Shown here piece by piece: positions 3,533 through 24,766 of a stretch of 64,000 bases of DNA (the stretch's first letter is position 1; each line of letters starts with the position of its first letter). Made by a program: the position numbers and the translations under genes. Source of the DNA: Tannerella sp. (GTDB lineage: Bacteria; Bacteroidota; Bacteroidia; Bacteroidales; Tannerellaceae); NCBI GenBank assembly GCA_031551825.1, contig JAVBNB010000068.1, positions 7,477 to 71,476 of the forward strand, read 5' to 3'. Below the pieces are notes generated by a model, which was not told where the DNA came from, did not search any database, and worked only from the letters and a program-made list of their open reading frames with translations.

Positions 3533-4699
3533 TTTGGAGCCGTTTCCTTTGTTTTTTCGCCATTCGTGACGCCAGAGATGTATGTCTTCGGGGCCGATAA
3601 ATGGTTTTAGTTTCCGTTCTTCTTTGGATGGAGCCGGCGGTAATTGTCCGGGCTCGTTCTGATACCAGTAAGCGACGGTAGCTATGTCCAGTGTGAGGTT
3701 GTTGTTGTGTCCATGTTCGATGGAGCCTTTTAGGTTTGTTTCGAAAAAGATGGGATCGTTGATGAAAAAGCGGTAAACATGGGTGCGTCCGAGCCACCCG
3801 ATGTCGTCATTTACACGAGGATAGCCGAAATAGGGATGTGAGAATTTTTCCTTCGGGCACCATGATGTGTTGAAGAAGTCTTCGGTTCCTGTTCCTATCA
3901 TGGATGGTATGGTTTCATCATCGATGTACCACATGTCGTCTCCTTCGCCATACCACATGGGCGTTGGACAATGTACGTAATAATTGATACCGATGAAATG
4001 TCCTTTTCCTTTGATATCAGCAAAAATATAGTTATCGGCTCCGTCTTTGTTTTCTCCTTGCGGCCCTAATTTACTCCATTCGTTTTCCCCGTCAGGGAGT
4101 GCATCTGTCAGTTCGTGGTTATACCAGGCATGGAAACGTCCCAGATCAGCGGGTAGTTTTTTCATTTCTACATAATCTACATAGAAATAAAAGGCGTTGA
4201 TGTCTTTATCCGACTGGTTTTCAATCTCAATCTTAGCTCCTGTAGCAAAAGGCATACTGAAATAAGAACTAAGGCCTGTCCCATTTCCAGGGCCGGATGA
4301 GAGAGGCAGGGATGCATAATTGTATTGTTCGTTCCAACCCTGACCGAAAAATGGACCGATGGGCGATTCTACAGAGGGGTAGGATTTGTTATCCCAGTAC
4401 ATACGCAGGATGATATCGTTCCGGTTTAGGTCATGGGGGCCAGGTGACATGGTTATCCAGATATGATTGATAATGCCGGCGCTTTTGATTTCCGCAATAG
4501 TGCGTGTTTCACCCGGTTTGATTTCGCTGAAATGGTCGCGATAGTTTCCCGTTACGTCGTAACTACTGATGCGGCGGTTCCGCATTCCGTTCTGAATTTT
4601 GGCCAGCCCGGATAATTCTCCCGGGAGGTTTCCTTGTGCAAGTCCGTCGGAGAAAAAAACGAACAGACTACAGGCTAATGTTAGGATTGCTTTTTTCAT
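3515..4699 (-). CDS. DUF2961 / GH172-like secreted protein
   Basis: 394 aa with signal peptide MKKAILTLACSLFVFF. The conserved block IGTGTEDFFNTSW is recalled from the DUF2961 family. Confidence 0.55.
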   Translation of the reverse strand: MKKAILTLACSLFVFFSDGLAQGNLPGELSGLAKIQNGMRNRRISSYDVTGNYRDHFSEIKPGETRTIAEIKSAGIINHIWITMSPGPHDLNRNDIILRMYWDNKSYPSVESPIGPFFGQGWNEQYNYASLPLSSGPGNGTGLSSYFSMPFATGAKIEIENQSDKDINAFYFYVDYVEMKKLPADLGRFHAWYNHELTDALPDGENEWSKLGPQGENKDGADNYIFADIKGKGHFIGINYYVHCPTPMWYGEGDDMWYIDDETIPSMIGTGTEDFFNTSWCPKEKFSHPYFGYPRVNDDIGWLGRTHVYRFFINDPIFFETNLKGSIEHGHNNNLTLDIATVAYWYQNEPGQLPPAPSKEERKLKPFIGPEDIHLWRHEWRKNKGNGSKLWGNE

Positions 4700-9183: not shown

Positions 9184-9189
9184 CATTAT

Positions 9190-9272
9190 CGTTAGGGGTG
9201 TCCTTCCTTGAGGAAGGGCTGAGATTAAACCCTCGAACCTGATATGTTGTAATTGACATCGTAGGGAAACGG
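9190..9272 (+). promoter_or_regulatory. TPP (THI-box) riboswitch aptamer
   Basis: GGGGTG...GGCTGAGA...AACCCTCGAACCTGATATG...CGTAGGGAA matches the THI element core (CUGAGA, ACCUGAU, GGGAA). P1 pairs CGTT (9190-9193) with AACG (9268-9271). Confidence 0.9.
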
Positions 9273-9311
9273 TTGAGTTTAAAGCAAATATATTAAATAA
9301 TAAATTGTTAT

Positions 9312-13579: not shown

Positions 13580-14347
13580 ATGAAAAATTTAATAATAGCA
13601 GGAAAAGAGTTTCGTTCGAGATTATTTCTCGGTACGGGAAAGTTCAGTTCAAACGAACTGATGAGTCAGGCGATCAACGCTTCAATGACAGAAATGGTTA
13701 CGGTAGCAATGAAGCGATTGGATATTGAAAATAAGGAAGATGATATGTTTTTGCATATTAAAAAGCCTGGAATTCAATTATTACCGAATACATCGGGCGT
13801 ACGTAATGCTAAAGAAGCTGTTTTTGCGGCGAAATTAGCGCGCGAAGCATTTGGGACAAATTGGTTGAAACTGGAAATACATCCGGACCCGAAATATTTG
13901 TTGCCGGATCCGGTTGAAACCTTGAAAGCAACAGAAGAACTGGCAAAGGATGGGTTTGTTGTATTGCCTTATATTCAGGCCGATCCCGTGCTATGTAAGT
14001 TGTTGGAAAATGCCGGCGCTGCAACGGTTATGCCGCTTGGGGCGCCGATAGGTACGAATAAAGGCCTTTGTACGCGTGACTTGCTTGAGATTATTATTGA
14101 GCAGAGTAATATCCCTGTTGTGGTTGATGCCGGTATCGGAGCCCCGTCCCATGCTGCCGAGGCAATGGAGATGGGAGCAGATGCCGTTCTTGTCAATACG
14201 GCGATTGCTGTGGCGGGAGATCCTGTCGCAATGGCTGAGGCTTTCAGGTTAGGTGTGGAAGGCGGACGAAAAGCTTTTGAGGCTCAGTTGGCCGGTAAAC
14301 TCAATATTGCGGAGGCAAGTAGTCCGTTGACTTCATTTTTAATGTAA
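13580..14347 (+). CDS. thiG: thiazole synthase
   Basis: 255 aa with [20 protein letters not shown] and [13 protein letters not shown]. Confidence 0.92.
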
Positions 14348-14356
14348 GGAACAGGT

Positions 14357-15475
14357 ATGTTATACAAAGATTTGGTAAATGAATACGGTTGGGATGATAT
14401 TCATTCACGTATTAATAAAAAGACGGTCATAGATGTGGAGCAGGCTTTAAGCAAAAGTCGCCGGCCTACTGTTGATGACTTTATGGCTCTGATATCCCCT
14501 GCGGCGGAGCCTTATCTGGAACAGATGGCTGTGCTGAGCCGTCAGTATACGCAACAGCGTTTCGGTAAAACAATACAGTTTTATGTACCTCTTTACCTGA
14601 CGAGTTCATGTATGAACCATTGTGTTTACTGTGGATTTAACCATAACAACAATATCAAACGTATCATTCTGACGGACGAACAGATTTTACAGGAAGTAGA
14701 GGCGATTAAAAGTATCGGTGATTTTCAGCATATCCTCCTGGTGACAGGCGAAAATCCGCGTGATGCCGGAGTGGATTATATTGAAAATGCGATACGTTTG
14801 GTGAAGCCTTATTTTTCTTCTATTTCAATCGAAGTACAACCCTTGAAAGAGGAAGAATATAAGCGACTGACGAACGCCGGATTGAATGCGGTTTATTGCT
14901 ATCAGGAAACGTATAATAAGCAGAATTATAAGACTTATCATCCGAAAGGGATGAAGTCGAAGTTTGACTGGCGGTTGGATGCCTTCGACCGTATGGGAAA
15001 AGCCGGTGTACACAAAGTCGGTTTAGGCGTACTTATCGGATTGGAGGATTGGCGAACGGATGTTTCGATGATGGCGTTTCACTTGCGTTATTTACAGAAA
15101 ACATACTGGCAGACGAAATACTCCATTTCATTTCCGCGTATGCGTCCGCACGAAGGCGAGGCTTTTCAGCCCAATATTGTGATGTCTGATAAGGAACTGG
15201 CGCAGCTTATTTTTGCCTTTCGCATATTTGATCATGATGTGGAACTTGCTTTGTCTACACGTGAGGATAAGAGTTTCAGGGATCACATGACGACTTTGGG
15301 TATAACCTCCCTGAGTGCAGGTTCAAAAACAGACCCGGGCGGGTATGCGGTTTATAAAAAAGAATTGGAGCAGTTTGCCGTAAACGATGACCGCAGCCCG
15401 GATGATGTTTTAAGTGCGGTAAAAAAACAGGGTTATGAGGTGGTGTGGAAAGATTGGGATTTGAGCCTGCAATAA
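14357..15475 (+). CDS. thiH: 2-iminoacetate synthase (radical SAM)
   Basis: 372 aa. Radical-SAM cluster CMNHCVYCGF. Located between thiG and thiF. Confidence 0.85.
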   Translation: MLYKDLVNEYGWDDIHSRINKKTVIDVEQALSKSRRPTVDDFMALISPAAEPYLEQMAVLSRQYTQQRFGKTIQFYVPLYLTSSCMNHCVYCGFNHNNNIKRIILTDEQILQEVEAIKSIGDFQHILLVTGENPRDAGVDYIENAIRLVKPYFSSISIEVQPLKEEEYKRLTNAGLNAVYCYQETYNKQNYKTYHPKGMKSKFDWRLDAFDRMGKAGVHKVGLGVLIGLEDWRTDVSMMAFHLRYLQKTYWQTKYSISFPRMRPHEGEAFQPNIVMSDKELAQLIFAFRIFDHDVELALSTREDKSFRDHMTTLGITSLSAGSKTDPGGYAVYKKELEQFAVNDDRSPDDVLSAVKKQGYEVVWKDWDLSLQ

Positions 15476-15498
15476 ATTGGGACAAATAAAAAAGCAAA

Positions 15499-16293
15499 AT
15501 GGAAGACAGGTATAATCGTAATATTCTTATCGAAAATGTTGGAGAGAAAGGGCAATTGAAGTTAAGAGCTTCAAGAGTGCTTGTGGTAGGAGCGGGTGGA
15601 TTAGGCTCTCCCGTGCTTTTTTATCTGGCCGCCGCCGGGGTTGGTACAATTGGGATTGTTGATGATGATGTGGTAAACATCACCAATCTTCAACGTCAGA
15701 TCCTCCATTTTACGAGCGATCTTGGACGACGGAAAACTGAATCCGCACAGGAAAAACTTACCGCCTTGAATCCGGATGTGAAAATCGTTATTTATAATTG
15801 CAGGTTTTCGAATGAAAACGCGGAAAAAATAATTAACGGTAATATGGAAGGTGATACAGTCGGGCTGGCTTCGGATATGTCTTGTTTGAGATCCGGTGGC
15901 GAATATGACTTTGTGGTTGACTGTTGTGATAATTATGCGACAAAATTACTGATCAATGATGTTTGTGTAAGGATGAAAAAGCCTTATTCGCATGGCGCGG
16001 TGGTGGCTTTGCGTGGAGAAGTCATGACGTATATTCCCGGCTCCGCATGTTACCGGTGCGTCTTTGACACCCCGCCGGAAGACGGTGCGTTGCCTACTGC
16101 TTCGCAAATCGGAATTTTAGGCTCGGTCGCTGGGATCGTCGGAAGTCTACAAGCGACCGAAACGATTAAATATTTGGCCGGAATAAATGATTTAATAACA
16201 AATCGTATACTGATAGCAGAAGCAAATGTTATGAATTTTATTTCCTTAAAAGTGAAAAAAAGAGATTCGTGTATGTGTGGGGTTATTGAATAA
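15499..16293 (+). CDS. thiF: ThiF/MoeB-family adenylyltransferase
   Basis: 264 aa with VVGAGGLGSP Rossmann motif, DCCDNYATK, and cysteine pairs CYRC / CMC. Confidence 0.75.
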   Translation: MEDRYNRNILIENVGEKGQLKLRASRVLVVGAGGLGSPVLFYLAAAGVGTIGIVDDDVVNITNLQRQILHFTSDLGRRKTESAQEKLTALNPDVKIVIYNCRFSNENAEKIINGNMEGDTVGLASDMSCLRSGGEYDFVVDCCDNYATKLLINDVCVRMKKPYSHGAVVALRGEVMTYIPGSACYRCVFDTPPEDGALPTASQIGILGSVAGIVGSLQATETIKYLAGINDLITNRILIAEANVMNFISLKVKKRDSCMCGVIE

Positions 16294-16436: not shown

Positions 16437-16955
16437 TTATACATCAACAATAGCAGTCTCAATCAATTTGAAATTCAATTTTTCAATTGGTTGAAAGCCA
16501 TGCACAATAGGTTCAGGCAAATAACTTCTAATTATATCAAAAGCCCCCGCAATATCTTCTGGCGTCTCAATCGTTTTAGTTTTATTTGAAAAGACACACA
16601 ATCTTTCAGTAAAACTATCTATGAAAGATTTAATTGAAATTGTGTTGGAAAGATGTAACAACGCATTATGCAACTGTTTCCTCGCATCGTTTATTTTATT
16701 TTTAGACGAACTGCTTAATGACAATTCATTTAAGATAAAAAATGTATCACCTTCTAAATGATAGACAATAAAATCACATTTCTTTAATTCCAGTGCTTTA
16801 ATAACGTCATCGGGTTGCTGATTAAGAAAGTGCTCATAATCAATAACCGCAATAATCTTATTATTAGGATTATTATAGGTTGCACTTCCTGTTCCAAGTG
16901 ATTGTTTTATTGCAGGTTTTTTATCTTGAATATCGAAATTGGTATCATCTATCAC
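16437..16955 (-). CDS. hypothetical protein (possible PD-(D/E)xK-like motif, weak)
   Basis: 172-codon ORF in ~30% GC DNA, unlikely by chance. It has no ATG; the only start is GTG at 16955 and there is no internal Met. IAVID...ALELKK could be a D..ExK nuclease motif, but this is very tentative. Confidence 0.45.
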   Translation of the reverse strand: MIDDTNFDIQDKKPAIKQSLGTGSATYNNPNNKIIAVIDYEHFLNQQPDDVIKALELKKCDFIVYHLEGDTFFILNELSLSSSSKNKINDARKQLHNALLHLSNTISIKSFIDSFTERLCVFSNKTKTIETPEDIAGAFDIIRSYLPEPIVHGFQPIEKLNFKLIETAIVDV

Positions 16956-17051: not shown

Positions 17052-17459
17052 ATGGCAGAAATATTTTATGATATGTCCCATCTGACAACGGATGAACTTC
17101 GGGAACTGTTTACGTCCTACCGAAAACTCGGATGGATAGATTACGAGTATGAAGTACTGGATGAGAGCCACCCTCCTATACAGACTCTTTCGGATGCGGA
17201 GGTTATTCTGAATATTCAAGCGGGAGATGAACGAAATTATTTTGTATTCATGCTCAACCATGAAGACGAGGAAGACGGCGTAATGATTGGCTTTGGGCTA
17301 AATTACCAAGAATATTTTTCAGCGTACCTGCACCTTTCGCCTAAGTATCTGAAAGAACTAATCGAAAAGTATGCGCTGGTAAGTAAAGCAACCAATGCAG
17401 AGAACCTAACGGTCGAACAGTTCTTAATAAAGCAGGCAAATGACCTTCCGATGAATTAA
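17052..17459 (+). CDS. hypothetical acidic 135-aa protein
   Basis: ATG-initiated ORF, divergent from 16437-16955 (96-nt spacer) and convergent with the HEPN gene. No motif recognised. Confidence 0.5.
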   Translation: MAEIFYDMSHLTTDELRELFTSYRKLGWIDYEYEVLDESHPPIQTLSDAEVILNIQAGDERNYFVFMLNHEDEEDGVMIGFGLNYQEYFSAYLHLSPKYLKELIEKYALVSKATNAENLTVEQFLIKQANDLPMN

Positions 17460-17531
17460 ACAAGTCAATGATTTTAGACGGGATGTGAAATTATTATTAG
17501 CACCTACTATTCTCAATAAAAATTTGCTTTT

Positions 17532-18233
17532 TTACTGTACCGTTTCGTTTTTCTTTGCTTCTATTCTGTCAAACTTTACTTTCAATGCTTGAATTTTACT
17601 TTGCAAATTCCAAGTTTCTGTCTCTGTCACGAGTCTTTCTAACTCTGTCATATGGAAATAGAAGTCATTGAAATGTGCTTTAGTAGGGCTTTCAATTAAG
17701 TCTTCTACTGCCTGACTTAGTTTCTCATAGACGCTGAACAAAATATCTATTTGAACAAAATCAAGATTTTCTATTCGCGTGGTTGTTGCCTCGTTTGTTG
17801 CCGTATTGTCATTATTCAAAGCTACTACCCATTGTCCATGTGCAATTTTATTTCTTAACTGGCTTGGCTCGATAACAAATTTATTGATGTGTCTTGACAG
17901 TATCAATTTTTTATTTTGAACTTCGCCAGCATTTGCAATGCTATTTGTTCGACTAAATGCCAACGCCATACATTTCGTCCATTTTTGTTCTAAGTTCCTT
18001 TCGTTACTTATTTGTCGTATTTCACCCTCACTAAAACCGTATGGAGTGTGAATAACCTTAAGAAAAGAAAGCTCGGCAAATGAAGAGTATAGCAAAGCAT
18101 ACAACTTAGTCAACGCACTGAATGCAGAGTGGTCGTTTCTTTTGATAGATTGGTTGAACAATCTTTTTATATTTTTTCGTTGTTTATTCAGTTCCCTTAA
18201 ATTAACAACGCTTGCCCTGTAAATGTCAATCAT
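17532..18233 (-). CDS. HEPN-domain protein (Abi-like putative RNase)
   Basis: 233 aa. The Rx4H motif in SQLRNKIAHGQW is the HEPN catalytic signature seen in AbiD/F-type and related abortive-infection RNases. The protein is all-helical in character. Confidence 0.65.
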   Translation of the reverse strand: MIDIYRASVVNLRELNKQRKNIKRLFNQSIKRNDHSAFSALTKLYALLYSSFAELSFLKVIHTPYGFSEGEIRQISNERNLEQKWTKCMALAFSRTNSIANAGEVQNKKLILSRHINKFVIEPSQLRNKIAHGQWVVALNNDNTATNEATTTRIENLDFVQIDILFSVYEKLSQAVEDLIESPTKAHFNDFYFHMTELERLVTETETWNLQSKIQALKVKFDRIEAKKNETVQ

Positions 18234-18240
18234 ATCACAA

Positions 18241-18349
18241 AAATAAAAAAGGGCTTGTAATGAACACTTTGTTAGTCTGCATTACAAGCCCGGAGTTGAA
18301 CCGGGAACCTACCATTTCTGGTCCGCTTTGCCTTATTAAGCTACAAGTC
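18241..18349 (-). ncRNA. tRNA-like leader/small RNA ending in an intrinsic terminator, immediately upstream of the HEPN gene
   Basis: Minus-strand RNA reads GGACUUG-UA-GCUU-AAUAAGGCA-AAGC (acceptor 5' strand plus D arm), ACCA-GAAA-UGGU stub, CCCGG-UUCAACU-CCGGG (T arm), then the 12-bp hairpin GGGCUUGUAAUG/CAUUACAAGCCC and UUUUUUAUUUUU. It has no normal anticodon arm or 3' acceptor strand. Confidence 0.6.
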
Positions 18350-18353
18350 CGTT

Positions 18354-18361
18354 GCAAAGAT
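18354..18361 (-). promoter_or_regulatory. -7 box TATCTTTG driving the tRNA-like leader
   Basis: The reverse complement of CAAAGATA matches TAnnTTTG and ends ~5 nt upstream of the GGACUUG 5' end. Confidence 0.5.
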
Positions 18362-18842
18362 AATGTTTTTGTTGTATTGTATCTCACTTTACTCTTTTTT
18401 CTCATATTTTTTTGTGTAGAATATCCCCAAAGCTTATTTTCAGCACATATACTGTAACAAATTATCGCTTAGGTAATACCTTTTAGAAAAGAAAGACAAG
18501 TAGAAAGGCTACTTCTCCCTACCTGTCTATACTACATTAATCAAAATTGTTTACTAATTTCCTTTTACCCCTTCTTTCTCGTCCTTATCTGTCTGCTCAT
18601 TGTTGAAGGTAAAAGAAAGAGGAAATTCTCTCCCAAACGAATCGAAGAACACCACCTCTATATTATGGGCATCTTCCGATAGCGAACGAAAGTAGAGCCG
18701 GAAATAACTATCTGTTATCTCGTATGCATCATTAGGCAACTGTTATAACACCTACTATAAACGTTTTTGATTAATCGTTTATTATCAGGTGATTAATAAA
18801 GTGACTTTTTATAAAATAGTTATAAGACTATTAATAAGGTGA

Positions 18843-18876
18843 GAAAATAATAAAGGCTACCAAAATGATAGCCTTT
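18843..18876 (-). terminator. Intrinsic terminator after the type-II tRNA-like gene
   Basis: Minus strand reads AAAGGCTA-TCATTTTGG-TAGCCTTT followed by ATTATTTT. Confidence 0.55.
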
Positions 18877-18900
18877 GAAAATATATCGTATTATGAATAT

Positions 18901-18987
18901 TCAGAAGAGGGGATTCGAACCCCCGGAACCCTTTACAGGTTCACCTGATTATCAGTCAGGCGCCTTAAGCCTCTCAGCCACCTCTCT
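18901..18987 (-). tRNA. Type-II (long variable arm) tRNA-like gene with Ser-like body, anticodon loop CUGAUAA and imperfect acceptor stem
   Basis: AGAGAGG-TG-GCT-GAGAGGCTTAA-GGC-G-CCTGA-CTGATAA-TCAGG-TGAACCTGTAAAGGGTTCC-GGGGG-TTCGAAT-CCCCT-CTTCTGA. By hand-fold only 5 of 7 acceptor pairs form (1:72 is A/A, 2:71 is G/G), and the anticodon would be GAU. Confidence 0.5.
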
Positions 18988-18992
18988 AAGTG

Positions 18993-19000
18993 CAAAGATA
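18993..19000 (-). promoter_or_regulatory. -7 box TATCTTTG driving the tRNA-like gene
   Basis: The reverse complement of CAAAGATA ends 6 nt upstream of the tRNA-like 5' end. Confidence 0.5.
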
Positions 19001-19037
19001 ATAATATATATTGTAAATCAAATAATATCACTATAAA

Positions 19038-19616
19038 ATGGATAAAATATCACCTTTCACAACAATTGGAATCGACAGACAGACAAACAAATTAATAGAT
19101 AAGTTATGTAAACGTTATTCGCTGAAAAAGGGTGAAATAGTAAGAGTGGCTTTTGGGTAGATAGATAAGGCACAGATCAATCCCGCCGAAGCCCCCGAAT
19201 CGGTCAAAGCTGAACTTTCCAAAATCAACAAACGGCAGGATGATATTATTCGCTTCATCCGAAACTACGAAGAACAGGAACTTAACCCGATGATACGGGC
19301 GACCAATTCGATAGCCGCCCGCTTCGATGGAATAGTGAAGGCTTTGGATACGTTTGTTCTTTCGCAGTTGGAGAAGAACCAAGAGAAATACAATGCTGTG
19401 TTGCAAAGAATCAGCGACAAATTCGGCGAACATGCCGACGTGATAAATGGTCAGGGTAAACACATCGGCGCATTAAAAGAAACACAGAAAAAAGACAATG
19501 CTAAACTTTTGAAGTTAATCGGTCTTTATGCGGATTTGGCAACGTGTGGAGTAATGGACGGTAAACGCAAAGAGAATCTGAAAGCGGAAATTTACCAATT
19601 AATCAATCCCGAATAA
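19038..19616 (+). pseudogene. Relaxosome accessory/mobilization protein (MobA/BfmA-like) interrupted by an in-frame TAG
   Basis: ATG at 19038 gives MDKISPFTTIGIDRQTNKLIDKLCKRYSLKKGEIVRVAFG, then TAG at 19158-19160. The same frame continues to 19616 (193 codons in total). No ATG/GTG/TTG occurs between the TAG and 19290. Confidence 0.5.
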
Positions 19617-19619
19617 GCG

Positions 19620-20270
19620 ATGAACATAGATTTCCCGCCACCGTCAAAAGGAACGTACAATAATGCAGGCAGCAGCCGACAGTTAGCCAATTATTGCGAG
19701 CACGAAGATTTGCAACGGATGGAACAGGGAATCTATACCGAAGGTTTTTTCAATCTCAATCAGGATAATTTGTACAAATCCCAAGTTGTAAAAGACATCG
19801 ACGGGAATATTGGGCAATTACTAAAGACTGATGCCAAGTTTTATGCCGTCCATGTCAGCCCATCGGAAAAGGAACTGCAAGCGATGGGAAGCACCGAGCA
19901 GGAACAAGCCGAAGCCATGAAACGGTATATTCGTGAAATGTTCATTCCCGAATATGCCCAAAACTTCAACAAAGGACTATCAGCAGAGGACATAAAGTTT
20001 TACGGCAAAATCCATTTCAACCGTAACCGTTCCGATAATAAACTGAATATGCACTGCCATTTGATTGTGAGCCGTAAAGACCAATCGAACAAAGTCAAGA
20101 TAAGCCCGCTTACCAACCATCGAAATACCAAGAAAGGCGTTATTACAGGAGGTTTTGACCGCACAGTCCTATTTGAGAATGTAGAAAAAGGATTTGACAG
20201 GCTGTTCGGCTACCATCGGCAACTATCTGAAACGTTCGAGTATTGCAACACTATGAAAAAGGCAGCATGA
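19620..20270 (+). CDS. Relaxase-like mobilization protein (MobB/BfmB-like)
   Basis: 216 aa. RSDNKLNMHCHLIVSRKD resembles relaxase motif III (D..HxH). It sits directly after the accessory gene with a 3-nt gap. Confidence 0.5.
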   Translation: MNIDFPPPSKGTYNNAGSSRQLANYCEHEDLQRMEQGIYTEGFFNLNQDNLYKSQVVKDIDGNIGQLLKTDAKFYAVHVSPSEKELQAMGSTEQEQAEAMKRYIREMFIPEYAQNFNKGLSAEDIKFYGKIHFNRNRSDNKLNMHCHLIVSRKDQSNKVKISPLTNHRNTKKGVITGGFDRTVLFENVEKGFDRLFGYHRQLSETFEYCNTMKKAA

Positions 20271-20859: not shown

Positions 20860-21048
20860 ATGAAAACAAAGACGATTAATAGGCTCAAAGCAGTACTTGC
20901 AGAAAAGCAAGTAGCTAACAAGTGGCTTGCAGAGAAGATTAATATAAGCACTACTACTGTTTCGCGCTGGTGTACGAACAAGACGCAACCTTCGCTCGAA
21001 ACGTTGGTTGAGATTGCTGAAATTCTTAAAGTGGATGCAAAGAATTAA
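20860..21048 (+). CDS. XRE/Cro-C1-type helix-turn-helix transcriptional regulator
   Basis: 62 aa. LKAVLAEKQVANKWLAEKINISTTTVSRWCTNKTQPSLETLVEIAEIL is a textbook HTH_3 pattern. Confidence 0.8.
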   Translation: MKTKTINRLKAVLAEKQVANKWLAEKINISTTTVSRWCTNKTQPSLETLVEIAEILKVDAKN

Positions 21049-21082
21049 TCGTTTCAACAAAGAAAAATTAACAAGTAATATT

Positions 21083-22630
21083 ATGATAATTAACGATGTC
21101 CACATCAAGCAATTTAGGGGATTTAATGATGTGCAGTTTGCTTTAGGAAAGAATCTGACCGTAATTGCAGGCCAAAACGGAACTCAAAAAACCACAGTTT
21201 TGGGAATGCTTAGTCAGCCTTTCTCTATAACGGACAAAGGAAATCCGTTGTTTGGGGAAACACCGCTTTGTGGAGGTAATTATCGTTCATCTTTTGCTGA
21301 AAAATTTAAATTATCAGAAGCGTTTGATAAAGCACAAAGTCATGAATGGACATTAAATTTAAATAATGCAACGGAGCCTGAATTTACAGTGGAAAGTATC
21401 AGGCGAGATGCATCATCCGAAGCAATTCGTTTTTGGCAAAAAGGGAAACGCTCTAAAGGGTCGGGCTATATTCAACTTCCTGTAATATACTTGAGTTTGT
21501 CACGTCTATTCCCAATAGGAGAAGATACCGGTATCAGTTCAAGTACAGACATCTCTCTTACACCTGATGAATTTAAATTCTACAAGGATTGGCATGATAA
21601 GATTCTAATTATACCTGATGGACAAATGACCAGTGTTGATTACTTGAAAAGTAAACAAAAGAATACACTTGGTGCCAATACTTCATACTATGACTGGAGA
21701 ATGAACTCGGCCGGGCAGGATAATATCGGTAAAATCTTGCTGGCTATCCTATCATTCAAACGTCTAAAAGAAAAGCATAGAGATTCTTACACAGGTGGAA
21801 TTTTAGCGATAGACGAACTGGATACAACGTTATATCCTGCTTCCCAATTAAAATTAGTAGAGGCTTTGCGAAAATTCTCATCCCAATACAACATACAAAT
21901 TGTTTTCACGACACATTCCCTTACTATTTTGGAGGAAATGTGTGTACACCAAGAGAATCCGAAAATTCCGGGACAAGTAAAGGTTATATATTTACAAAAG
22001 GAGGATAGTCATGTTAAGGCTATTGAGGGTATTTCAATTGTTGAGATTAAGAATAAACTTAATGTAACTCTGTCTCCAAAACAAAAAACGAAGAAAATAT
22101 CTGTATTTGCAGAGGATAAAGAAGGTGAAATTTTTGCTAAGGCAGTGCTAAAAAGAAGAACTTCTTCTTTACAGTTTATTGAATGCACAATGGGATGCAG
22201 TAACTATATTGAGTTAGCAAAAAAGAAAATAGATGGTTTTAAATATCTGCAAAGTATTATCATTTTAGACGGTGATGTCAAATCCGAAAGTTCCAAAATG
22301 CGCGAATTGAAAAAATATAAGAACTTTCTTGTATTACCGGGAACAGAATCCCCCGAAAGACTTATTGCGAAATTTTTGTACAACCTACCCGAAGGTTCAC
22401 CACTTTGGGATAAAATTTATAATGGATATACAAAACAACTTGTTTTTCGTGACCATTCTTTAAGAGAAATACAAGCCGATAGAGAAAAAGCAAAAGCATG
22501 GTTTAATGCTCAAAAGCAATATTGGGGCAGAGGCTGTGCAGGTGTTATAAACTTGTGGATTTCAGAGAATCAGGAGGAAGTTTGCAATTTTATCAACGAA
22601 TATGACCGACTGATACAAAAATATATTTAG
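21083..22630 (+). CDS. OLD-family-like protein: ABC-type ATPase with C-terminal TOPRIM/DUF4435-like domain
   Basis: 515 aa from the ATG at 21083. P-loop GQNGTQKTT, signature-like NSAGQ, Walker B GGILAIDELD, H-loop VFTTHS. The C-terminal part has ISVFAEDKEGE ... IIILDGD, fitting the TOPRIM Glu and DxD. Confidence 0.65.
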   Translation: MIINDVHIKQFRGFNDVQFALGKNLTVIAGQNGTQKTTVLGMLSQPFSITDKGNPLFGETPLCGGNYRSSFAEKFKLSEAFDKAQSHEWTLNLNNATEPEFTVESIRRDASSEAIRFWQKGKRSKGSGYIQLPVIYLSLSRLFPIGEDTGISSSTDISLTPDEFKFYKDWHDKILIIPDGQMTSVDYLKSKQKNTLGANTSYYDWRMNSAGQDNIGKILLAILSFKRLKEKHRDSYTGGILAIDELDTTLYPASQLKLVEALRKFSSQYNIQIVFTTHSLTILEEMCVHQENPKIPGQVKVIYLQKEDSHVKAIEGISIVEIKNKLNVTLSPKQKTKKISVFAEDKEGEIFAKAVLKRRTSSLQFIECTMGCSNYIELAKKKIDGFKYLQSIIILDGDVKSESSKMRELKKYKNFLVLPGTESPERLIAKFLYNLPEGSPLWDKIYNGYTKQLVFRDHSLREIQADREKAKAWFNAQKQYWGRGCAGVINLWISENQEEVCNFINEYDRLIQKYI

Positions 22631-22648
22631 ATTTAAAGCCTGAAAGTA

Positions 22649-23905
22649 ATGATGGAGCAAGAAATTCAAATATTGAAGTTGAAGGATTTAGTCTTGTGGA
22701 CGGAGAATCCCAGAGACCCTATTGATGAAAATGCGACAGACCAAGATATTGTCAATAAAGCAATGGAAGACAAGTATTCCAAATGGTCGTTACCGAAGTT
22801 AGCAAAAGAAATGGGGAACCATTACGATTTTAGTGAGCTTCCAACTGTTGTATATCATGGCAAAAAGCCTGTTGTTTATGACGGGAATCGACGGATAATA
22901 CTTGGGAAGGTAAAACATAATCTTGTTACTGTTGCAGGCAAAGACAATATAGACATACCTGATATTCCGGCTGAAATTCCGTGCAACGTCTGTTCTAAGC
23001 AAATCGCATTGAAAAATGTGTATAGAAAGCATAGTGATTCTGGTTCATGGCATCCGCTTGAAAGGGATATATTTCTTCATAAATTCATGGGAGAGAAAAA
23101 AAGTACTTTTTTGATTATTGAAGAAAATACGGGGTTAATTACAGCCAACCCTCATTTGAATCAACGATTTGTTAAGGATGAGATTTTGAGAGAAGATATT
23201 TTATCCGAAATGGGATTTGACATTAAAGGCAATAAGTTGCGGAGCGTTCATGACGAAAATCAGGCACTTTCCATTTTGCACAATTTGTCTCAAAAAATCC
23301 AAGATAAAGAAATAACCACCCGTCATAATAGAGGGAAAGTTATTGATGTATTGGATAAATCCATGCGGAAAATCATTGAAAAAAATAAAGGAAGTCAATC
23401 ATATAATAATGTAAATATCCAATTTACTAATCCGACAAATACAGATAAAGAAACGGAAAAGAAACAGCGTCAAACAAAGCGTACTCAAAAAAAGGAAGAT
23501 GAATTGTTTGGGAAAAAACTTTATCTGAAATCGGGTGATGTAAATAACTTATATAGGGATATTTCCGACCTATATCAGATTTATTTGAATAATAAATCTG
23601 TATTATCTCATTCGTTTCCCAGTCTTATCAGAATGTCATTACGACTATTGTGTGAATCTGCTGCAAAAGATATTAGTGTTACATTGGATAAATATCTGAA
23701 TACTCATTTTGCCAATGCAAAAAAGAATTTAGACCAAGATATTAAAACAAGTTTGTCCAATCAAAATGTAACGGAGAAAACAATCCTTCAATTATTGCAT
23801 ACAGGTGCGCATAATTATCAAGCGGCAAATAACCTGCCGCAAACCTATGCTATTTCTGTTATTCTTGGTGAAATGCTTACATTAACGCATGGAAAGGAAT
23901 ACTAA
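22649..23905 (+). CDS. ParB/Srx-like N-terminal domain protein with uncharacterised C-terminal region
   Basis: 418 aa. LKLKDLVLWTENPRDP and VVYDGNRRIILGK resemble the ParB N-domain (NPR box and the DGxxR motif, cf. DGQHR/DGQQR of DndB/GmrS). A Lys-rich linker is followed by a ~130-aa helical C-terminus ending in LLHTGAHNY. Confidence 0.6.
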   Translation: MMEQEIQILKLKDLVLWTENPRDPIDENATDQDIVNKAMEDKYSKWSLPKLAKEMGNHYDFSELPTVVYHGKKPVVYDGNRRIILGKVKHNLVTVAGKDNIDIPDIPAEIPCNVCSKQIALKNVYRKHSDSGSWHPLERDIFLHKFMGEKKSTFLIIEENTGLITANPHLNQRFVKDEILREDILSEMGFDIKGNKLRSVHDENQALSILHNLSQKIQDKEITTRHNRGKVIDVLDKSMRKIIEKNKGSQSYNNVNIQFTNPTNTDKETEKKQRQTKRTQKKEDELFGKKLYLKSGDVNNLYRDISDLYQIYLNNKSVLSHSFPSLIRMSLRLLCESAAKDISVTLDKYLNTHFANAKKNLDQDIKTSLSNQNVTEKTILQLLHTGAHNYQAANNLPQTYAISVILGEMLTLTHGKEY

Positions 23906-24766
23906 ATGAACACATTTTATTCACCTTTACGATATCCGGGAGGAAAGAATTGCATCTTTTCTTTTATGTCCAAGTTGTTTTATGAAAATAATTTGCTCGG
24001 TGTCAGTTACGCGGAACCTTATGCAGGTGGCGCAGGGCTGGCCTTACGACTTTTATTTGAAGAATATGTAAATAAAATATACATCAATGACTTTGATAGG
24101 TCTATCTATGCTTTTTGGCATACCATTATTAATGATTCCGAAGAGTTTTGCAATTGGATTGCCAATGTAGATATTTCTGTTGAAAATTGGCATATATACA
24201 AGGATATTCAAAGAATTTCGAATGAATATGATTTATTCGAATTAGCAAAATCTACTTTCTTTCTTAACAGAACAAATGTATCGGGGGTAATTAAGGGTGG
24301 TATTATTGGCGGTGTTGAACAAAGAGGAAAATATAAAATAGACGTTCGATTCAATAAGGAAGATTTAATCAATAAAATACGGAAGATAGCCAGTTTTCGG
24401 AATCGCATCTTTGTATCTAATCTTGACGGGCTTGCGTTTATTAAAAAAATGGACAAAAAGAGAGAGGATATTTTTATTTATCTCGACCCACCGTACTACA
24501 AAAAAGCATCAGATTTATACATGAACTTTTACTTGGAAAAAGACCATGAAAATTTATCAAGACATGTCCGAAATATAAATAAGCGATGGATGATTTCCTA
24601 CGATAACCAAGATTTCATTCTTAACCTATATGCTCAAGAAAGAAAAGTGTTATATAACCTTTCCCAATGCGCATCCAATAGAGTTGGGAATGAGATTTTA
24701 ATTTTTTCAGAAAGGATAAATTTTGCAGATTCGATGAATCATTTGAAAGCACCAGTCTTGATATAA
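23906..24766 (+). CDS. D12-class (Dam-like) N6-adenine DNA methyltransferase
   Basis: 286 aa with PLRYPGGKN, motif I EPYAGGAG and motif IV IYLDPPYY. Its ATG directly abuts the stop of the preceding gene. Confidence 0.85.
   Translation: MNTFYSPLRYPGGKNCIFSFMSKLFYENNLLGVSYAEPYAGGAGLALRLLFEEYVNKIYINDFDRSIYAFWHTIINDSEEFCNWIANVDISVENWHIYKDIQRISNEYDLFELAKSTFFLNRTNVSGVIKGGIIGGVEQRGKYKIDVRFNKEDLINKIRKIASFRNRIFVSNLDGLAFIKKMDKKREDIFIYLDPPYYKKASDLYMNFYLEKDHENLSRHVRNINKRWMISYDNQDFILNLYAQERKVLYNLSQCASNRVGNEILIFSERINFADSMNHLKAPVLI

What the first reader, a model, noticed from the sequence alone, without database searches (positions are those of the whole stretch)
17532..18361. tRNA-like leader RNA with competing terminator/antiterminator folds fused to a HEPN toxin-type gene (type III TA-like architecture)
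On the minus strand a -7 box TATCTTTG (18361-18354) is followed by a ~100-nt RNA. That RNA ends in a perfect 12-bp hairpin GGGCUUGUAAUG/CAUUACAAGCCC (18290-18279 with 18261-18250) and a U-tract (18249-18241). Only 7 nt later comes the ATG (18233) of a 233-aa protein with the HEPN Rx4H motif (LRNKIAHGQW). There is no room for a separate promoter, so the HEPN gene must be expressed by terminator read-through. The RNA body looks like a tRNA with a 5' acceptor strand, D arm (GCUU/AAGC) and T arm (CCCGG-UUCAACU-CCGGG), but with only a 4-bp/4-nt stub in place of the anticodon arm. Its 5' end GGACUUGUA is a near copy of the terminator's 5' strand, so it can pair with the same 3' strand UACAAGCCC (8 of 9 pairs). 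That gives mutually exclusive folds: a closed tRNA-like form and a terminator form. The order promoter, structured RNA, terminator, toxin is the established layout of type III toxin-antitoxin systems such as ToxIN, but here the RNA is a single tRNA mimic rather than tandem repeats. Some HEPN-type defence nucleases (PrrC, RloC) target tRNAs, so the RNA could be a decoy antitoxin or a sensor leader.
Basis: partly seen in the sequence, partly recalled or inferred. Interest (0 to 1): 0.78.

Follow-up and report, generated by a model that had tools for sequence, protein, structure and literature searches.

The report
tRNA-mimic RNA paired with HEPN gene
A small RNA shaped like a tRNA, able to flip into a hairpin, sits directly in front of an unannotated HEPN-type RNase-like gene, and this RNA-protein pair recurs in bacteria of at least ten phyla, which makes it a likely new kind of RNA-controlled toxin or defence module.

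Summary
A covariance model built only from other clades finds the RNA at 18350-18280(-) with 45 bits, E=2e-10.

- **Association:** All 77 assessable genome loci (80 fetched) that encode a homolog of the 233-aa protein carry the tRNA-like RNA just upstream. Conversely, 63 of 80 metagenome hits to an RNA-only pattern have the protein gene 38-74 nt downstream.
- **RNA:** It is a cloverleaf with a 5-bp acceptor stem, D arm, short capped "anticodon" arm, canonical T arm and conserved tRNA elbow nucleotides.
- **Two folds:** In 56 of 77 loci the acceptor 3' strand plus 3 nt of the T stem also form the 5' strand of a 16-22-bp hairpin. Both mutually exclusive helices covary strongly.
The proposed pairing of the 5' end with the hairpin's 3' strand is not conserved (46% paired against 45% shuffled).
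- **Terminator:** The U-tract is confined to the window's small subclade (5 of 56).
- **Protein:** It has an invariant RN..AHGQ motif but only sub-threshold HEPN profile matches, and no Pfam, PADLOC, PDB or literature record.

Best reading: a type III-like toxin-antitoxin or abortive-infection module with a bistable tRNA-mimic leader. Function is untested.

The parts
18355..18362 (-). Bacteroidota-type -7 promoter box TATCTTTG, ending 5 nt before the RNA's first G
   Evidence: Sequence. The motif alone is not enriched in the window. However, a TAnnTTTG box sits at the same offset (-12) in 8 Bacteroidota loci. A TAnnnT hexamer, or TTGACA with a -10 box, sits at the matching offset in most other hairpin-class loci.
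18280..18350 (-). tRNA-like RNA core: GG, 5' acceptor strand, D arm, capped short arm, variable region, T arm, 3' acceptor strand and AATG
   Evidence: Family covariance model R1, built without this clade, scores 45.4 bits, E=2e-10, over model positions 1-75. The Rfam tRNA model gives only 23.2 bits. The region folds as a cloverleaf when the acceptor and T stems are constrained.
18344..18348 (-). 5' acceptor strand X (ACTTG)
   Evidence: The homologous position pairs with the 5 nt after the T arm in the family: 92.9-94.3% paired, all 5 pairs covary. In the window only 3 of 5 positions pair, with two U.U mismatches.
18325..18341 (-). D arm GCTT-AATAAGGCA-AAGC with the GG of the D loop
   Evidence: U8, G10, A14 and the D-loop GG are invariant or conserved in at least 90% of 73 relatives.
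18311..18322 (-). Stub in place of the anticodon arm: ACCA-GAAA-TGGT
   Evidence: In relatives this arm has a 4-9-bp stem and a 3-7-nt loop, with no conserved anticodon.
18289..18305 (-). T arm CCCGG-TTCAACT-CCGGG
   Evidence: The T stem is 100% paired and 4 of 5 pairs covary. G53, T54, T55, C56, A58 and C61 are invariant.
18284..18288 (-). 3' acceptor strand P (CTTGT), shared by the acceptor stem and the hairpin
   Evidence: P pairs either with X or with the distal hairpin strand, and both pairings covary.
18251..18291 (-). Hairpin with a perfect 12-bp stem (GGGCTTGTAATG / CATTACAAGCCC) and a 17-nt loop. Its 5' strand includes 3 nt of the T stem and all of P.
   Evidence: The homologous 16-22-bp hairpin is present in 56 of 77 loci. 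Its lower 12 bp are 98.1% paired and all 12 pairs covary.
18239..18250 (-). T tract TTTTTTATTTTT, which together with the hairpin forms an intrinsic-terminator-like site. It contains a second TAnnTTTG match at 18238-18245.
   Evidence: A U tract after the hairpin is found only in the window, L001, L002, L003 and L006.
17532..18233 (-). ORF of 233 aa, an unannotated all-alpha protein with a HEPN-type motif (RNKIAHGQW, residues 127-135, nt 17829-17855)
- There are 272 homologs, none with a Pfam domain or an informative name.
- R127, N128 and Q134 are invariant, and A131, H132 and G133 are at least 90% conserved, across 52 members down to 21% identity.
- The AlphaFold2 model has pLDDT 90.
- Weak HEPN_Swt1, HEPN_RiboL-PSP and HEPN_MAE_28990 hits were found.

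Best explanation
The window holds one member of a conserved, horizontally mobile two-part module.

**RNA.** A promoter fires at the first nucleotide of a ~70-nt RNA that folds into a tRNA-like L shape. It has a 5-bp acceptor stem, a D arm, a short capped arm instead of an anticodon arm, a canonical T arm and conserved elbow nucleotides. This RNA is the 5' leader of the gene for a 233-aa HEPN-like, metal-independent RNase-type protein.

**Switch.** The acceptor 3' strand plus 3 nt of the T stem are also the 5' strand of a long hairpin. The RNA can therefore exist either as a cloverleaf or as a hairpin form in which the acceptor and T arms are undone.

**Most likely role.** I think the module works like a type III toxin-antitoxin or abortive-infection system of the AbiF kind. 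The protein would recognise the upper half of tRNAs. Its own leader would be a mimic of that target that binds and holds the protein inactive and also sets how much protein is made. In the window's subclade the hairpin plus U tract would terminate most transcripts, giving an excess of small RNA over full-length mRNA. If RNA supply falls, for example through phage-induced transcription shut-off, free protein would cut cellular tRNA or other RNA and stop growth.

**Shown:** the RNA structure, the two competing helices, the strict RNA-gene linkage and the invariant Rx4H motif.
**Inferred:** RNase activity, RNA-protein binding, toxicity, the neutralising role of the RNA and the trigger.
For: **Linkage**
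- 77 of 77 assessable genome loci with a protein homolog have the RNA immediately upstream on the same strand.
- 63 of 80 metagenome hits to an 18-base RNA-only pattern have the gene 38-74 nt downstream.
- The pair also occurs on viral contigs and on a conjugative IncFII plasmid.
- RNA architecture follows protein clade, while the clades cut across phyla.

**RNA shape**
- The acceptor and T stems covary, and 74 of 77 sequences fold as cloverleaves.
- U8, A14, the D-loop GG and the T-loop TTCRA are conserved.
- The Rfam tRNA model passes its threshold in 6 of 14 relatives, often over model positions 3-68 only.

**Switch**
- The hairpin's lower 12 bp, including 3 T-stem nucleotides and P, are 98% paired and all 12 pairs covary.
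- X:P is 94% paired. X and the distal strand differ where G.U pairs allow it (L004, L032), so the constraint acts on RNA pairing, not on a DNA repeat.

**Protein**
- The RN..AHGQ motif is invariant, and there are repeated weak hits to three HEPN families.
- The gene is solitary among unrelated neighbours. In the window and on the plasmid it lies beside defence genes.

**Precedent**
- AbiF is a HEPN toxin neutralised by a cis-encoded upstream ncRNA (PMC12373285, PMC12737573).
- ToxIN has a terminator between its RNA and toxin genes (my own knowledge of ToxIN; the ToxIN papers listed were not read).
Against: - There is no experimental or computational evidence here for toxicity, RNase activity or RNA-protein binding.
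- HEPN membership is not established. No Pfam, NCBIfam or PADLOC hit reaches threshold, and Foldseek finds nothing significant in PDB or BFVD. AbiV HEPN scores E=0.88, and the AbiF structure 8VZ6 is not among the 50 top hits shown.
- By nearest-neighbour energies the hairpin form is about 10 kcal/mol more stable than the cloverleaf in 55 of 56 RNAs. The free RNA may therefore not be tRNA-shaped at equilibrium.
- A terminator that would give RNA excess exists in only 5 of 56 hairpin loci. Elsewhere RNA and mRNA are made 1:1.
- In the window's subclade, protein binding to the cloverleaf would favour read-through. That is positive feedback, which is odd for a toxin.
- The module is absent from 50,697 isolated phage genomes and rare on plasmids (3 of 72,556).
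Confidence: 0.45

Rival explanations
1. The RNA is purely a cis-regulatory leader, acting as an autoregulatory operator or attenuator. The protein is a tRNA-binding or tRNA-cutting enzyme, and its leader mimics the substrate. Excess protein binds or cuts its own mRNA leader and adjusts its own synthesis, as E. coli ThrRS does at the tRNA-like thrS operator. The RNA has no neutralising (antitoxin) role in trans.
For: - In 51 of 56 hairpin loci and in all 21 hairpin-less loci there is no terminator, so the RNA is simply the 5' UTR. The start codon lies a median 18 nt after the hairpin, or 13.5 nt after the acceptor in the hairpin-less class.
- The conserved two-state design is typical of riboregulators.
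- In some clades the released distal strand is complementary to the start-codon region, with one covarying example: L019 CUGGCA/UGCCAG against L028 CCGGCA/UGCCGG.
Against: - Complementarity between the distal strand and the start region is not general (mean z = -0.25 over 54 loci).
- The window's subclade adds a terminator that would release a free small RNA.
- Orphan RNA copies without the gene exist (L115, L117).
- Strict retention of the full tRNA elbow goes beyond what a simple operator hairpin needs.
Confidence: 0.25
2. The RNA is a required cofactor, scaffold or sensor of an active ribonucleoprotein rather than an inhibitor. For example, the tRNA mimic could be a bait that is modified, cut or displaced by a phage factor that targets host tRNAs or by phage tRNAs, and that event would switch the HEPN on. 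Alternatively, host tRNA-processing enzymes normally cleave the leader, and their failure during infection would de-repress the gene.
For: - The conserved L-shape elbow is what RNase P, RNase Z, the CCA-adding enzyme and many phage factors read (established tRNA biology).
- No locus has the protein gene without the RNA (77 of 77), as expected for an obligatory partner.
- Some clades keep a real 7-nt anticodon loop: GUA in L064, L068, L072 and L075, GUU in L059 and L077, GUC in L076.
- The window copy lies next to PD-Lambda-5 and an AriA/PtuA-like ATPase.
Against: - The anticodon arm is not conserved in length, loop size or sequence, so anticodon-directed factors cannot be the general trigger.
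- The 5-bp acceptor with unpaired positions 1-2 and 71-72 is a poor substrate mimic for RNase P or Z and for aaRS.
- No data on triggers exist.
Confidence: 0.15
3. The element is a decayed tRNA gene or a tRNA-derived attachment-site remnant next to a cargo gene of a mobile element, with no RNA-level function.
For: - The window copy sits in a mobile or defence island, with a TraQ fragment, DUF5712 and an odd tRNA 550 nt upstream.
- tRNA genes are common integration sites (established knowledge).
- ARAGORN labels many copies as odd tRNAs.
Against: - Compensatory changes maintain four stems and a competing hairpin across at least ten phyla.
- Position, strand and spacing relative to the gene are fixed.
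- A promoter is placed exactly at the 5' end.
- No integrase is consistently adjacent.
- The family model separates these RNAs (38-75 bits for genome and plasmid loci; 31-54 bits for the viral contigs) from true tRNAs in the same loci (22-35 bits).
Confidence: 0.02

Closest known systems
AbiF / AbiFr (RCd22) HEPN toxin with cis-encoded ncRNA antitoxin (type III TA, proposed ancestor of Cas13)
   Same: - A single HEPN-motif protein of modest size is preceded on the same strand by a structured ncRNA that is co-transcribed with it.
- The module is solitary and mobile.
- In AbiF the RNA binds and neutralises the RNase and also down-regulates its expression (PMC12373285, PMC12737573). This is the role proposed here.
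   Different: - The protein has no Abi_2 (Pfam) match, and the 50 top Foldseek PDB hits shown do not include the AbiF structure 8VZ6.
- The RNA does not match the Rfam abiF motif or any family other than tRNA.
- Here the RNA is an L-shaped tRNA mimic with a built-in competing hairpin.
ToxIN / CptIN / TenpIN type III toxin-antitoxin systems
   Same: - The order is promoter, RNA gene, (terminator), endoribonuclease-like gene.
- In the window's subclade an intrinsic-terminator-like hairpin lies between the RNA and the ORF, as in toxIN.
   Different: - There are no tandem repeats; the RNA is a single unit.
- The protein is all-alpha with an Rx4H motif, unlike what I know of the ToxN/AbiQ fold.
- The terminator is absent in 51 of 56 hairpin loci.
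tRNA-mimic operators and tRNA-sensing leaders (E. coli thrS operator; T-box riboswitches)
   Same: - A 5' leader uses tRNA shape or recognition and mutually exclusive helices to set expression of the downstream gene.
- A terminator/antiterminator-type competition over one shared strand occurs in the window's subclade.
   Different: - The thrS operator mimics only the anticodon arm. T-boxes bind a tRNA rather than imitate one.
- Here the whole upper half, including the elbow, is imitated and the anticodon is dispensable.
- The downstream gene is not a translation or amino-acid gene.
Bacterial Y RNA-like YrlA and other tRNA-like domains (tmRNA TLD, viral TLS, mascRNA)
   Same: An RNA domain with acceptor-like, D and T arms and a conserved elbow but no decoding function.
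   Different: - There is no Rfam match to YrlA, tmRNA or TLS families.
- The partner is not Rsr/Ro60.
- The acceptor is only 5 bp and is embedded in an mRNA leader.
tRNA-directed HEPN nucleases (PrrC, RloC, HepT of HEPN-MNT, Cas13 collateral cleavage)
   Same: An Rx4-6H motif. Cited from established knowledge, these enzymes cut tRNA anticodon loops or acceptor ends, which is why a tRNA mimic is a plausible inhibitor or operator.
   Different: - Those enzymes are restrained by proteins (EcoprrI, MntA) or by a crRNA, not by a tRNA mimic.
- No sequence or fold match to them was found.

Membership tests
Bona fide tRNA | Recognised by tRNA detectors above threshold | tested here: not met
   ARAGORN makes no call at 18280-18350. 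The Rfam RF00005 model gives 23.2 bits against a gathering score of 29. Some relatives do pass (35.9-58.3 bits).
Bona fide tRNA | 7-bp acceptor stem, 7-nt anticodon loop, discriminator and CCA end | tested here: not met
   The acceptor is 5 bp in the family, with positions 1-2 and 71-72 unpaired, and only 3 of 5 pair in the window. The window's loop is GAAA (4 nt). Loop size and 'anticodon' vary freely. The 3' side continues into a hairpin and the mRNA.
Bona fide tRNA | Tertiary-interaction nucleotides of the L shape (U8, A14, G18/G19, T54-Psi55-C56, A58) | tested here: met
   These positions are invariant or at least 90% conserved in 73 sequences.
Type III toxin-antitoxin (ToxIN-like) | RNA gene directly upstream of the toxin gene, same strand, one promoter | tested here: met
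Type III toxin-antitoxin (ToxIN-like) | Antitoxin made of tandem direct repeats processed by the toxin | tested here: not met
   Tandem Repeats Finder finds nothing in 17400-19100. Each locus has a single RNA unit.
Type III toxin-antitoxin (ToxIN-like) | Intrinsic terminator between RNA and toxin gene | tested here: inconclusive
   Present in the window and in 4 close relatives, and absent in 51 of 56 hairpin loci and in all hairpin-less loci.
Type III toxin-antitoxin (ToxIN-like) | Protein is toxic and the RNA neutralises it by direct binding | not testable with these tools
   Needs expression, co-purification and binding assays.
AbiF/AbiFr | Abi_2 (AbiD/F) protein domain | tested here: not met
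   No Pfam hit for the window protein at E<=0.01. Abi_2 is not among the families listed in the relaxed scans of 23 and 10 family members.
AbiF/AbiFr | abiF RNA motif upstream | tested here: not met
   An Rfam 15 scan at E<=10 over 17400-19400, and at gathering score over 14 relatives, returns only tRNA.
HEPN superfamily | Conserved Rx4-6H catalytic motif | tested here: met
   R127 is invariant and H132 is at least 90% conserved in 52 sequences down to 21% identity. The motif reads RNKIAHGQ.
HEPN superfamily | Match to a curated HEPN family profile | tested here: inconclusive
   Only sub-threshold hits were found: HEPN_Swt1 in 6 of 23 members (best E 0.01), HEPN_RiboL-PSP in 3 of 10 (best E 0.0022) and HEPN_MAE_28990 in 1 of 10. 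None reaches its gathering score.
HEPN superfamily | All-alpha helical-bundle fold similar to solved HEPN domains | tested here: inconclusive
   The AlphaFold2 model is confident and all-alpha (pLDDT 90). Foldseek finds no match with E<=0.001 in PDB or BFVD; AbiV HEPN 9bj6 scores E=0.88.
Terminator/antiterminator riboregulator | Two mutually exclusive helices sharing one strand, both under selection | tested here: met
   X:P is 94.3% paired with 5 of 5 pairs covarying. P:distal is 98.1% paired with 12 of 12 covarying. Both were counted on the same gapless alignment.
Terminator/antiterminator riboregulator | U tract after the terminator helix | tested here: inconclusive
   Met in the window (18250-18239) and in 4 relatives only.
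Known anti-phage defence systems (PADLOC v2) | Protein matches a defence-system model | tested here: not met
   No PADLOC hit for the 233-aa protein.

The most novel reading that the evidence does not exclude
This would be a previously undescribed class of RNA-protein module. A complete L-shaped tRNA mimic with a built-in cloverleaf/hairpin switch would be the dedicated partner (antitoxin, operator or sensor) of a new family of HEPN RNases that act on tRNAs. The RNA appears to derive from a real tRNA gene, since some clades still carry a Tyr/Asn/Asp-type GUN anticodon loop. The pair spreads as a unit across bacterial phyla, prophages and plasmids.
Probability: 0.4. Interest if true: 0.88.

Novelty: new variant of a known kind. 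Interest (0 to 1): 0.84.

Why it matters
If the module works as proposed, it adds a second, independent example after AbiF of a HEPN RNase governed by its own cis-encoded RNA. It would also be the first, as far as the searched literature shows, in which that RNA is a whole-tRNA mimic.

- **Toxin control.** It would show that substrate mimicry by RNA can restrain a toxin.
- **A model switch.** The RNA is a compact natural two-state switch whose two folds are both documented by covariation.
- **Annotation.** It gives a handle on a protein family of at least ~450 clusters at 50% identity that is annotated everywhere as 'hypothetical'.
- **Pseudo-tRNA calls.** It would explain a class of 'pseudo-tRNA' or odd-anticodon tRNA calls in genome annotations.
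- **Testability.** The system is only ~900 bp and can be tested directly in E. coli, because close relatives occur in Enterobacterales, Shewanella and Psychrobacter.

Tried and rejected
It is possible in the window (8 of 9 pairs, -25.7 kcal/mol against -18.2 for X:P and -34.8 for the hairpin form). Family-wide it is 46.1% paired against 44.8% in shuffles. It fails in L004 and L005, where P and the distal strand changed.
2. **Translational occlusion.** I tested whether the freed distal strand pairs with the ribosome-binding or start region. RNAduplex against shuffles gives mean z = -0.25 over 54 loci, so this is not general. Strong cases are limited to L008, L012, L013, L019, L023, L025, L028 and L046.
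3. **Known RNA families.** Only tRNA matched.
4. **Known protein families and structures.** Pfam, NCBIfam, PADLOC, PDB sequences, Foldseek against PDB and Foldseek against BFVD gave nothing above threshold.
5. **Tandem repeats in the RNA region.** None found.
6. **Conserved partner genes.** Neighbours differ between loci.
7. **Isolated phage genomes.** No homolog.
8. **Odd tRNA at 18899-18989.** It is not found in any other fetched locus, so it is not part of the module.
9. **Literature.** Searches combining tRNA-like or tRNA mimic with HEPN, antitoxin, type III TA or abortive infection found no description of such a system.
10. **MAFFT alignment of the D and 'anticodon' arms.** It was not structurally consistent. 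Those arms were therefore assessed by constrained folding of each sequence, not by column counts.
Full report
**What is in the window.** All features lie on the minus strand.
- A TATCTTTG box (18362-18355) is followed 5 nt later by GG (18350).
- The RNA then reads: ACTTG (X, 18348-18344), TA, a D arm GCTT-AATAAGGCA-AAGC (18341-18325), a stub ACCA-GAAA-TGGT (18322-18311), AGGTT, a T arm CCCGG-TTCAACT-CCGGG (18305-18289), and CTTGT (P, 18288-18284) followed by AATG.
- GGGCTTGTAATG (18291-18280) pairs perfectly with CATTACAAGCCC (18262-18251) across a 17-nt loop.
- Next come TTTTTTATTTTT (18250-18239), GTGAT, and the ATG (18233) of a 233-aa ORF that ends at 17532. The ORF carries RNKIAHGQW at residues 127-135.

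Everything else is as described. RNAfold puts the 12-bp hairpin in the minimum-energy structure (-35.7 kcal/mol, z = -2.8).

**Standard detectors.** ARAGORN does not call the element. Rfam's tRNA model gives 23.2 bits, below its 29-bit threshold, and no other Rfam family matches even at E<=10. Taken alone, the element would be a doubtful tRNA look-alike.

**The protein.**
- It has no Pfam, NCBIfam or PADLOC match.
- It has 272 homologs of about 230 aa (337 with a broader profile). None has a precomputed Pfam domain, and every name given by a source is 'hypothetical protein'.
- An exhaustive profile search finds 459 clusters at 50% identity with E<=1e-3, of which 312 have E<=1e-10, among 1.84 billion representatives.
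- Across 52 members down to 21% identity, N11, R127, N128 and Q134 are invariant. E54, K59, W85, A131, H132, G133 and S182 are at least 90% conserved. RNxxAH is a textbook HEPN Rx4-6H motif.
- The AlphaFold2 model is confident (pLDDT 90, pTM 0.85) and all-alpha.
- Foldseek finds nothing significant in PDB or BFVD. AbiV HEPN scores E=0.88. No PDB sequence is related.
- Relaxed Pfam scans give repeated but sub-threshold hits to HEPN families: HEPN_Swt1 in 6 of 23 members, HEPN_RiboL-PSP in 3 of 10 distant members (best E 0.0022), and HEPN_MAE_28990 in 1 of 10.

I treat the protein as a probable, very divergent HEPN. This is not established.

**The RNA travels with the gene.**
- A scan of one genome per species returned 80 loci encoding relatives. 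They come from Bacteroidota, Bacillota, Alpha-, Beta- and Gammaproteobacteria, Myxococcota, Nitrospirota, Cyanobacteria, Planctomycetota, Chloroflexota, Fibrobacterota and Desulfobacterota.
- nhmmer with the window's RNA hits the 150 nt just upstream of the gene in 38 of them. Direct inspection shows a T arm and cloverleaf there in 77.
- The three exceptions (L078-L080) are N-terminally truncated protein matches. Two of them are cut by the contig end.
- In the reverse direction, the 18-base RNA-only pattern GGTTCGATTCCGGGNNNNNAAAG was scanned in metagenome contigs. It gave 84 matching stretches, of which the 80 listed loci were read. Of these, 63 have a protein homolog starting 38-74 nt downstream on the same strand. 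Most of the remainder are chance matches inside coding DNA. L115, L117 and L170 are orphan copies, and L153 is cut by the contig end.
- Seven viral contigs and a conjugative IncFII plasmid of Raoultella also carry the pair. The viral set includes proteins only 25-28% identical. No isolated phage genome has it.
- A covariance model built from 58 sequences, excluding the window and its close relatives, finds the window RNA with 45.4 bits (E=2e-10, full length). It finds the RNAs of the excluded clade, the viral contigs and the plasmid with 31-60 bits. True tRNAs in the same loci score 22-35 bits.

**Structure of the RNA.** In a 73-sequence alignment:
- The 5 nt after positions 1-2 pair with the 5 nt that directly follow the T arm: 92.9% paired, all five pairs with double-sided changes.
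- The T stem is 100% paired.
- The covariation score is 0.79 against 0.21 in shuffles, and it collapses when the partner columns are slid.
- RNAalifold finds the same helices unaided.
- With those two stems fixed, 74 of 77 sequences fold as cloverleaves. Each has a 4-bp D stem whose sequence varies in a compensatory way (GCTT/AAGC, GTCT/AGAC, GCAT/ATGC and others) and a second arm with a 4-9-bp stem and a 3-7-nt loop.
- U8, G10, A14, the D-loop GG and G53-T54-T55-C56, A58 and C61 are invariant or nearly so. These are the nucleotides that build the tRNA elbow.
- ARAGORN calls about 30 of the copies as tRNAs with meaningless or two-base 'anticodons'.
- Rfam's tRNA model passes threshold in 6 of 14 relatives, often over model positions 3-68 only.

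The family is therefore a true three-dimensional tRNA mimic with a shortened acceptor stem and a dispensable anticodon. A few clades keep a real 7-nt loop (GUA, GUU, GUC), which suggests descent from a genuine tRNA gene.

**The second fold.**
- In 56 of 77 loci a 16-22-bp hairpin (-16 to -40 kcal/mol) starts 3 nt inside the T stem's 3' strand and uses P as part of its 5' strand.
- I built a gapless alignment of the three strands from 49 distinct sequences. On it, the lower 12 bp of the hairpin are 98.1% paired and all 12 pairs covary, including the 3 T-stem nucleotides. X:P is 94.3% paired and 5 of 5 pairs covary.
- The two helices cannot coexist, so both folds are under selection.
- X and the distal strand are not simple copies. 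Where P has G, one can carry U and the other C (L004, L032). The constraint is therefore on RNA pairing.
- By nearest-neighbour energies the hairpin form wins by a median 10.5 kcal/mol, and 55 of 56 minimum-energy structures contain it.
- The cloverleaf must then be kinetic (it is transcribed first) or be held by tertiary contacts or a bound partner.
- The 21 loci without the hairpin are 19 G5/C5-type loci (acceptor GGGGG/CCCCC or a close variant), which fall in one protein clade of 17 plus L029, together with L062 and L074 of cluster 4. RNA architecture thus co-diversifies with the protein, while each clade spans several phyla.

- In the window, X:P is weak (3 of 5 pairs, two U.U mismatches), while GGACUUGUA pairs with UACAAGCCC in 8 of 9 positions.
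- The fold closed that way has -25.7 kcal/mol, against -18.2 for X:P and -34.8 for the hairpin form.
- Seven loci share this state, but with identical sequences, so there is no covariation.
- In L004, L005 and L081, which have the same X but a changed P and distal strand, X:P is 5 of 5, 4 of 5 and 5 of 5, and X:distal fails.
- Family-wide, X:distal is at chance level (46.1% against 44.8%).

The idea of competing folds is right.

**Terminator and promoter.**
- Only the window, L001, L002, L003 and L006 have a U tract after the hairpin. Elsewhere the hairpin is followed by sequences such as CCUGAAAU or CCUUGGAG and, a median 18 nt later, the start codon.
- Read-through of a terminator is therefore special to this Bacteroidota subclade. 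In general the RNA is the mRNA's 5' leader.
- Promoter-like boxes sit at a fixed offset just upstream of the RNA's first nucleotide. TAnnTTTG lies at -12 in 8 Bacteroidota loci. TTGACA-17-GAAAAT occurs in Gammaproteobacteria and TATAAT-like boxes in Bacillota. The 5' end of the mimic is thus probably the transcription start.
- TAnnTTTG by itself is not enriched in the window (79 found, 69 +/- 9 expected). A second copy lies inside the T tract at 18245-18238.

**Context.**
- The gene is solitary, and its neighbours differ from locus to locus: P-type ATPase and SecA in Ruminococcus, group II introns and transposases in Tenacibaculum.
- In the window it lies between the thi operon and a rhamnosidase gene. 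The same island holds a TraQ fragment, DUF5712, an AriA/PtuA/GajA-like ATPase and PD-Lambda-5 A/B.
- On the Raoultella plasmid it lies next to RelA/SpoT-domain and P-loop NTPase genes.

**How it most likely works.** The shown facts are:
- an obligatory RNA-gene pair that moves horizontally;
- an RNA that imitates the upper half of tRNA and can switch to a hairpin;
- a protein with an invariant HEPN-type catalytic motif.

The closest documented system is AbiF. It is a HEPN RNase toxin that is bound, neutralised and down-regulated by a structured ncRNA encoded just upstream (PMC12373285, PMC12737573). By analogy, and because several HEPN nucleases act on tRNAs (established knowledge: PrrC, RloC, HepT, Cas13 collateral activity), I propose the following. 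The protein recognises the tRNA elbow and acceptor region, and its leader is a mimic that sequesters it and tunes its synthesis. In the window's subclade the terminator gives an excess of free RNA. I put this at about 0.45.

A purely autoregulatory leader (0.25) and a cofactor, bait or sensor role (0.15) fit the same anatomy. An att-site or pseudogene origin without function is excluded by the covariation.

The weak points are the unproven HEPN assignment, the lack of any activity data, the thermodynamic dominance of the hairpin, and the 1:1 RNA:mRNA stoichiometry in most loci.

**Novelty.** No curated RNA family, protein family, defence model or solved structure covers either part. Full-text searches found no paper that describes a tRNA-like RNA partnered with a HEPN protein or acting as an antitoxin. 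The literature library is incomplete, so prior description elsewhere cannot be excluded. I class the module as a new variant of a known kind: an RNA-governed HEPN toxin module. It has a substantial chance of being more than that.

Noticed in passing
window 18899-18989 (-): An odd class-II (long variable arm, Ser-like) tRNA with anticodon GAU (Ile). Only 5 acceptor base pairs form, because G2.G71 and A1.A72 are mismatched. It has its own TATCTTTG box at 19000-18993 and a terminator-like hairpin at 18876-18852. Rfam tRNA gives 39 bits and the family model R1 gives 19 bits. It is not found in any other fetched locus. It could be a pseudo-tRNA, a mistranslating tRNA or an integration-site hybrid.
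   Followed up: partly
window 18557-18739 (-) and 19620-20270 (+): A 61-aa ORF matches only the C-terminal end of TraQ (PF12988, E=1.2e-11, profile positions 86-133 of 133), and a DUF5712 gene lies nearby. These look like remnants of a Bacteroidota conjugative or mobilisable element around the module.
   Followed up: partly
window 21008-24766 (+): A defence cluster next to the module. It holds an ABC-type ATPase (AAA_15/AAA_21; PADLOC ATPase-Toprim, AriA, PtuA and GajA models, E to 1e-20) followed by PD-Lambda-5 A (weak) and PD-Lambda-5 B, a D12 N6-adenine methyltransferase (E=1e-111).
   Followed up: partly
window 9184-9284 (+) and 13580-16293 (+): A TPP riboswitch (Rfam 54.6 bits, just above threshold) lies ahead of a thiamine operon (ThiG, a radical-SAM ThiH-like protein, ThiF). 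This is ordinary. The operon marks the chromosomal edge of the island.
   Followed up: no
window 18238-18245 (-): A second TAnnTTTG match (TATTTTTG) lies inside the terminator's T tract, 4 nt before the ATG. It could in principle drive a leaderless mRNA for the HEPN-like gene. It is not conserved in the four relatives that also have a T tract.
   Followed up: partly
window 17532-18233 (-): The public gene call for this ORF appears to be only 145 aa (P0030, 100% identical over 62% of the query). This misses the N-terminal 88 residues, which are conserved in all homologs.
   Followed up: no
L064, L068, L072, L075 (about 3797-3894); L059, L076, L077: In some clades the mimic keeps a canonical 7-nt anticodon loop with GUA (Tyr-like; L064 scores 58 bits with the Rfam tRNA model), GUU or GUC. 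All are GUN anticodons of the queuosine family. This hints that the RNA descends from a real tRNA and possibly at the original target class.
   Followed up: partly
L019, L023, L025, L028 (about 3960-4010); L008, L012, L013, L046: In these loci the distal hairpin strand is strongly complementary to the start-codon region. Examples are CUGGCA:UGCCAG in L019 and L023 and CCGGCA:UGCCGG in L028, with z down to -4.5. A translational switch may operate in some clades although it is not general.
   Followed up: partly
L115, L117, L170 (metagenome); L006 1829-2065: Some tRNA-like elements, with or without the hairpin, have no recognisable protein gene downstream. In L006 the RNA is intact but the ORF stops after 40 codons. 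The RNA can therefore outlive the gene. The reverse was not seen in 77 loci.
   Followed up: partly
L008, L012, L014, L046 (20 nt before the start codons): The Bacillota copies lack a recognisable Shine-Dalgarno sequence upstream of the ORF, which is unusual for these organisms. This is consistent with deliberately weak translation of the protein.
   Followed up: no
hairpin upper stems, e.g. L031 3938-3975, L012 3941-3980: Beyond base pairing, the hairpin shows sequence conservation in the Proteobacteria and Bacillota clades: AAAG-NN-YAUU ... AGUG-NN-YUUU. AAAG follows P in 25 of 56 hairpin loci. This may be a protein-binding or cleavage site.
   Followed up: no
window 16437-16955 (-): A 172-aa ORF lies downstream of the module. 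It has only weak PADLOC hits (PD-T4-4_B, E=0.002) and no Pfam match. It is not a conserved neighbour in other loci.
   Followed up: no
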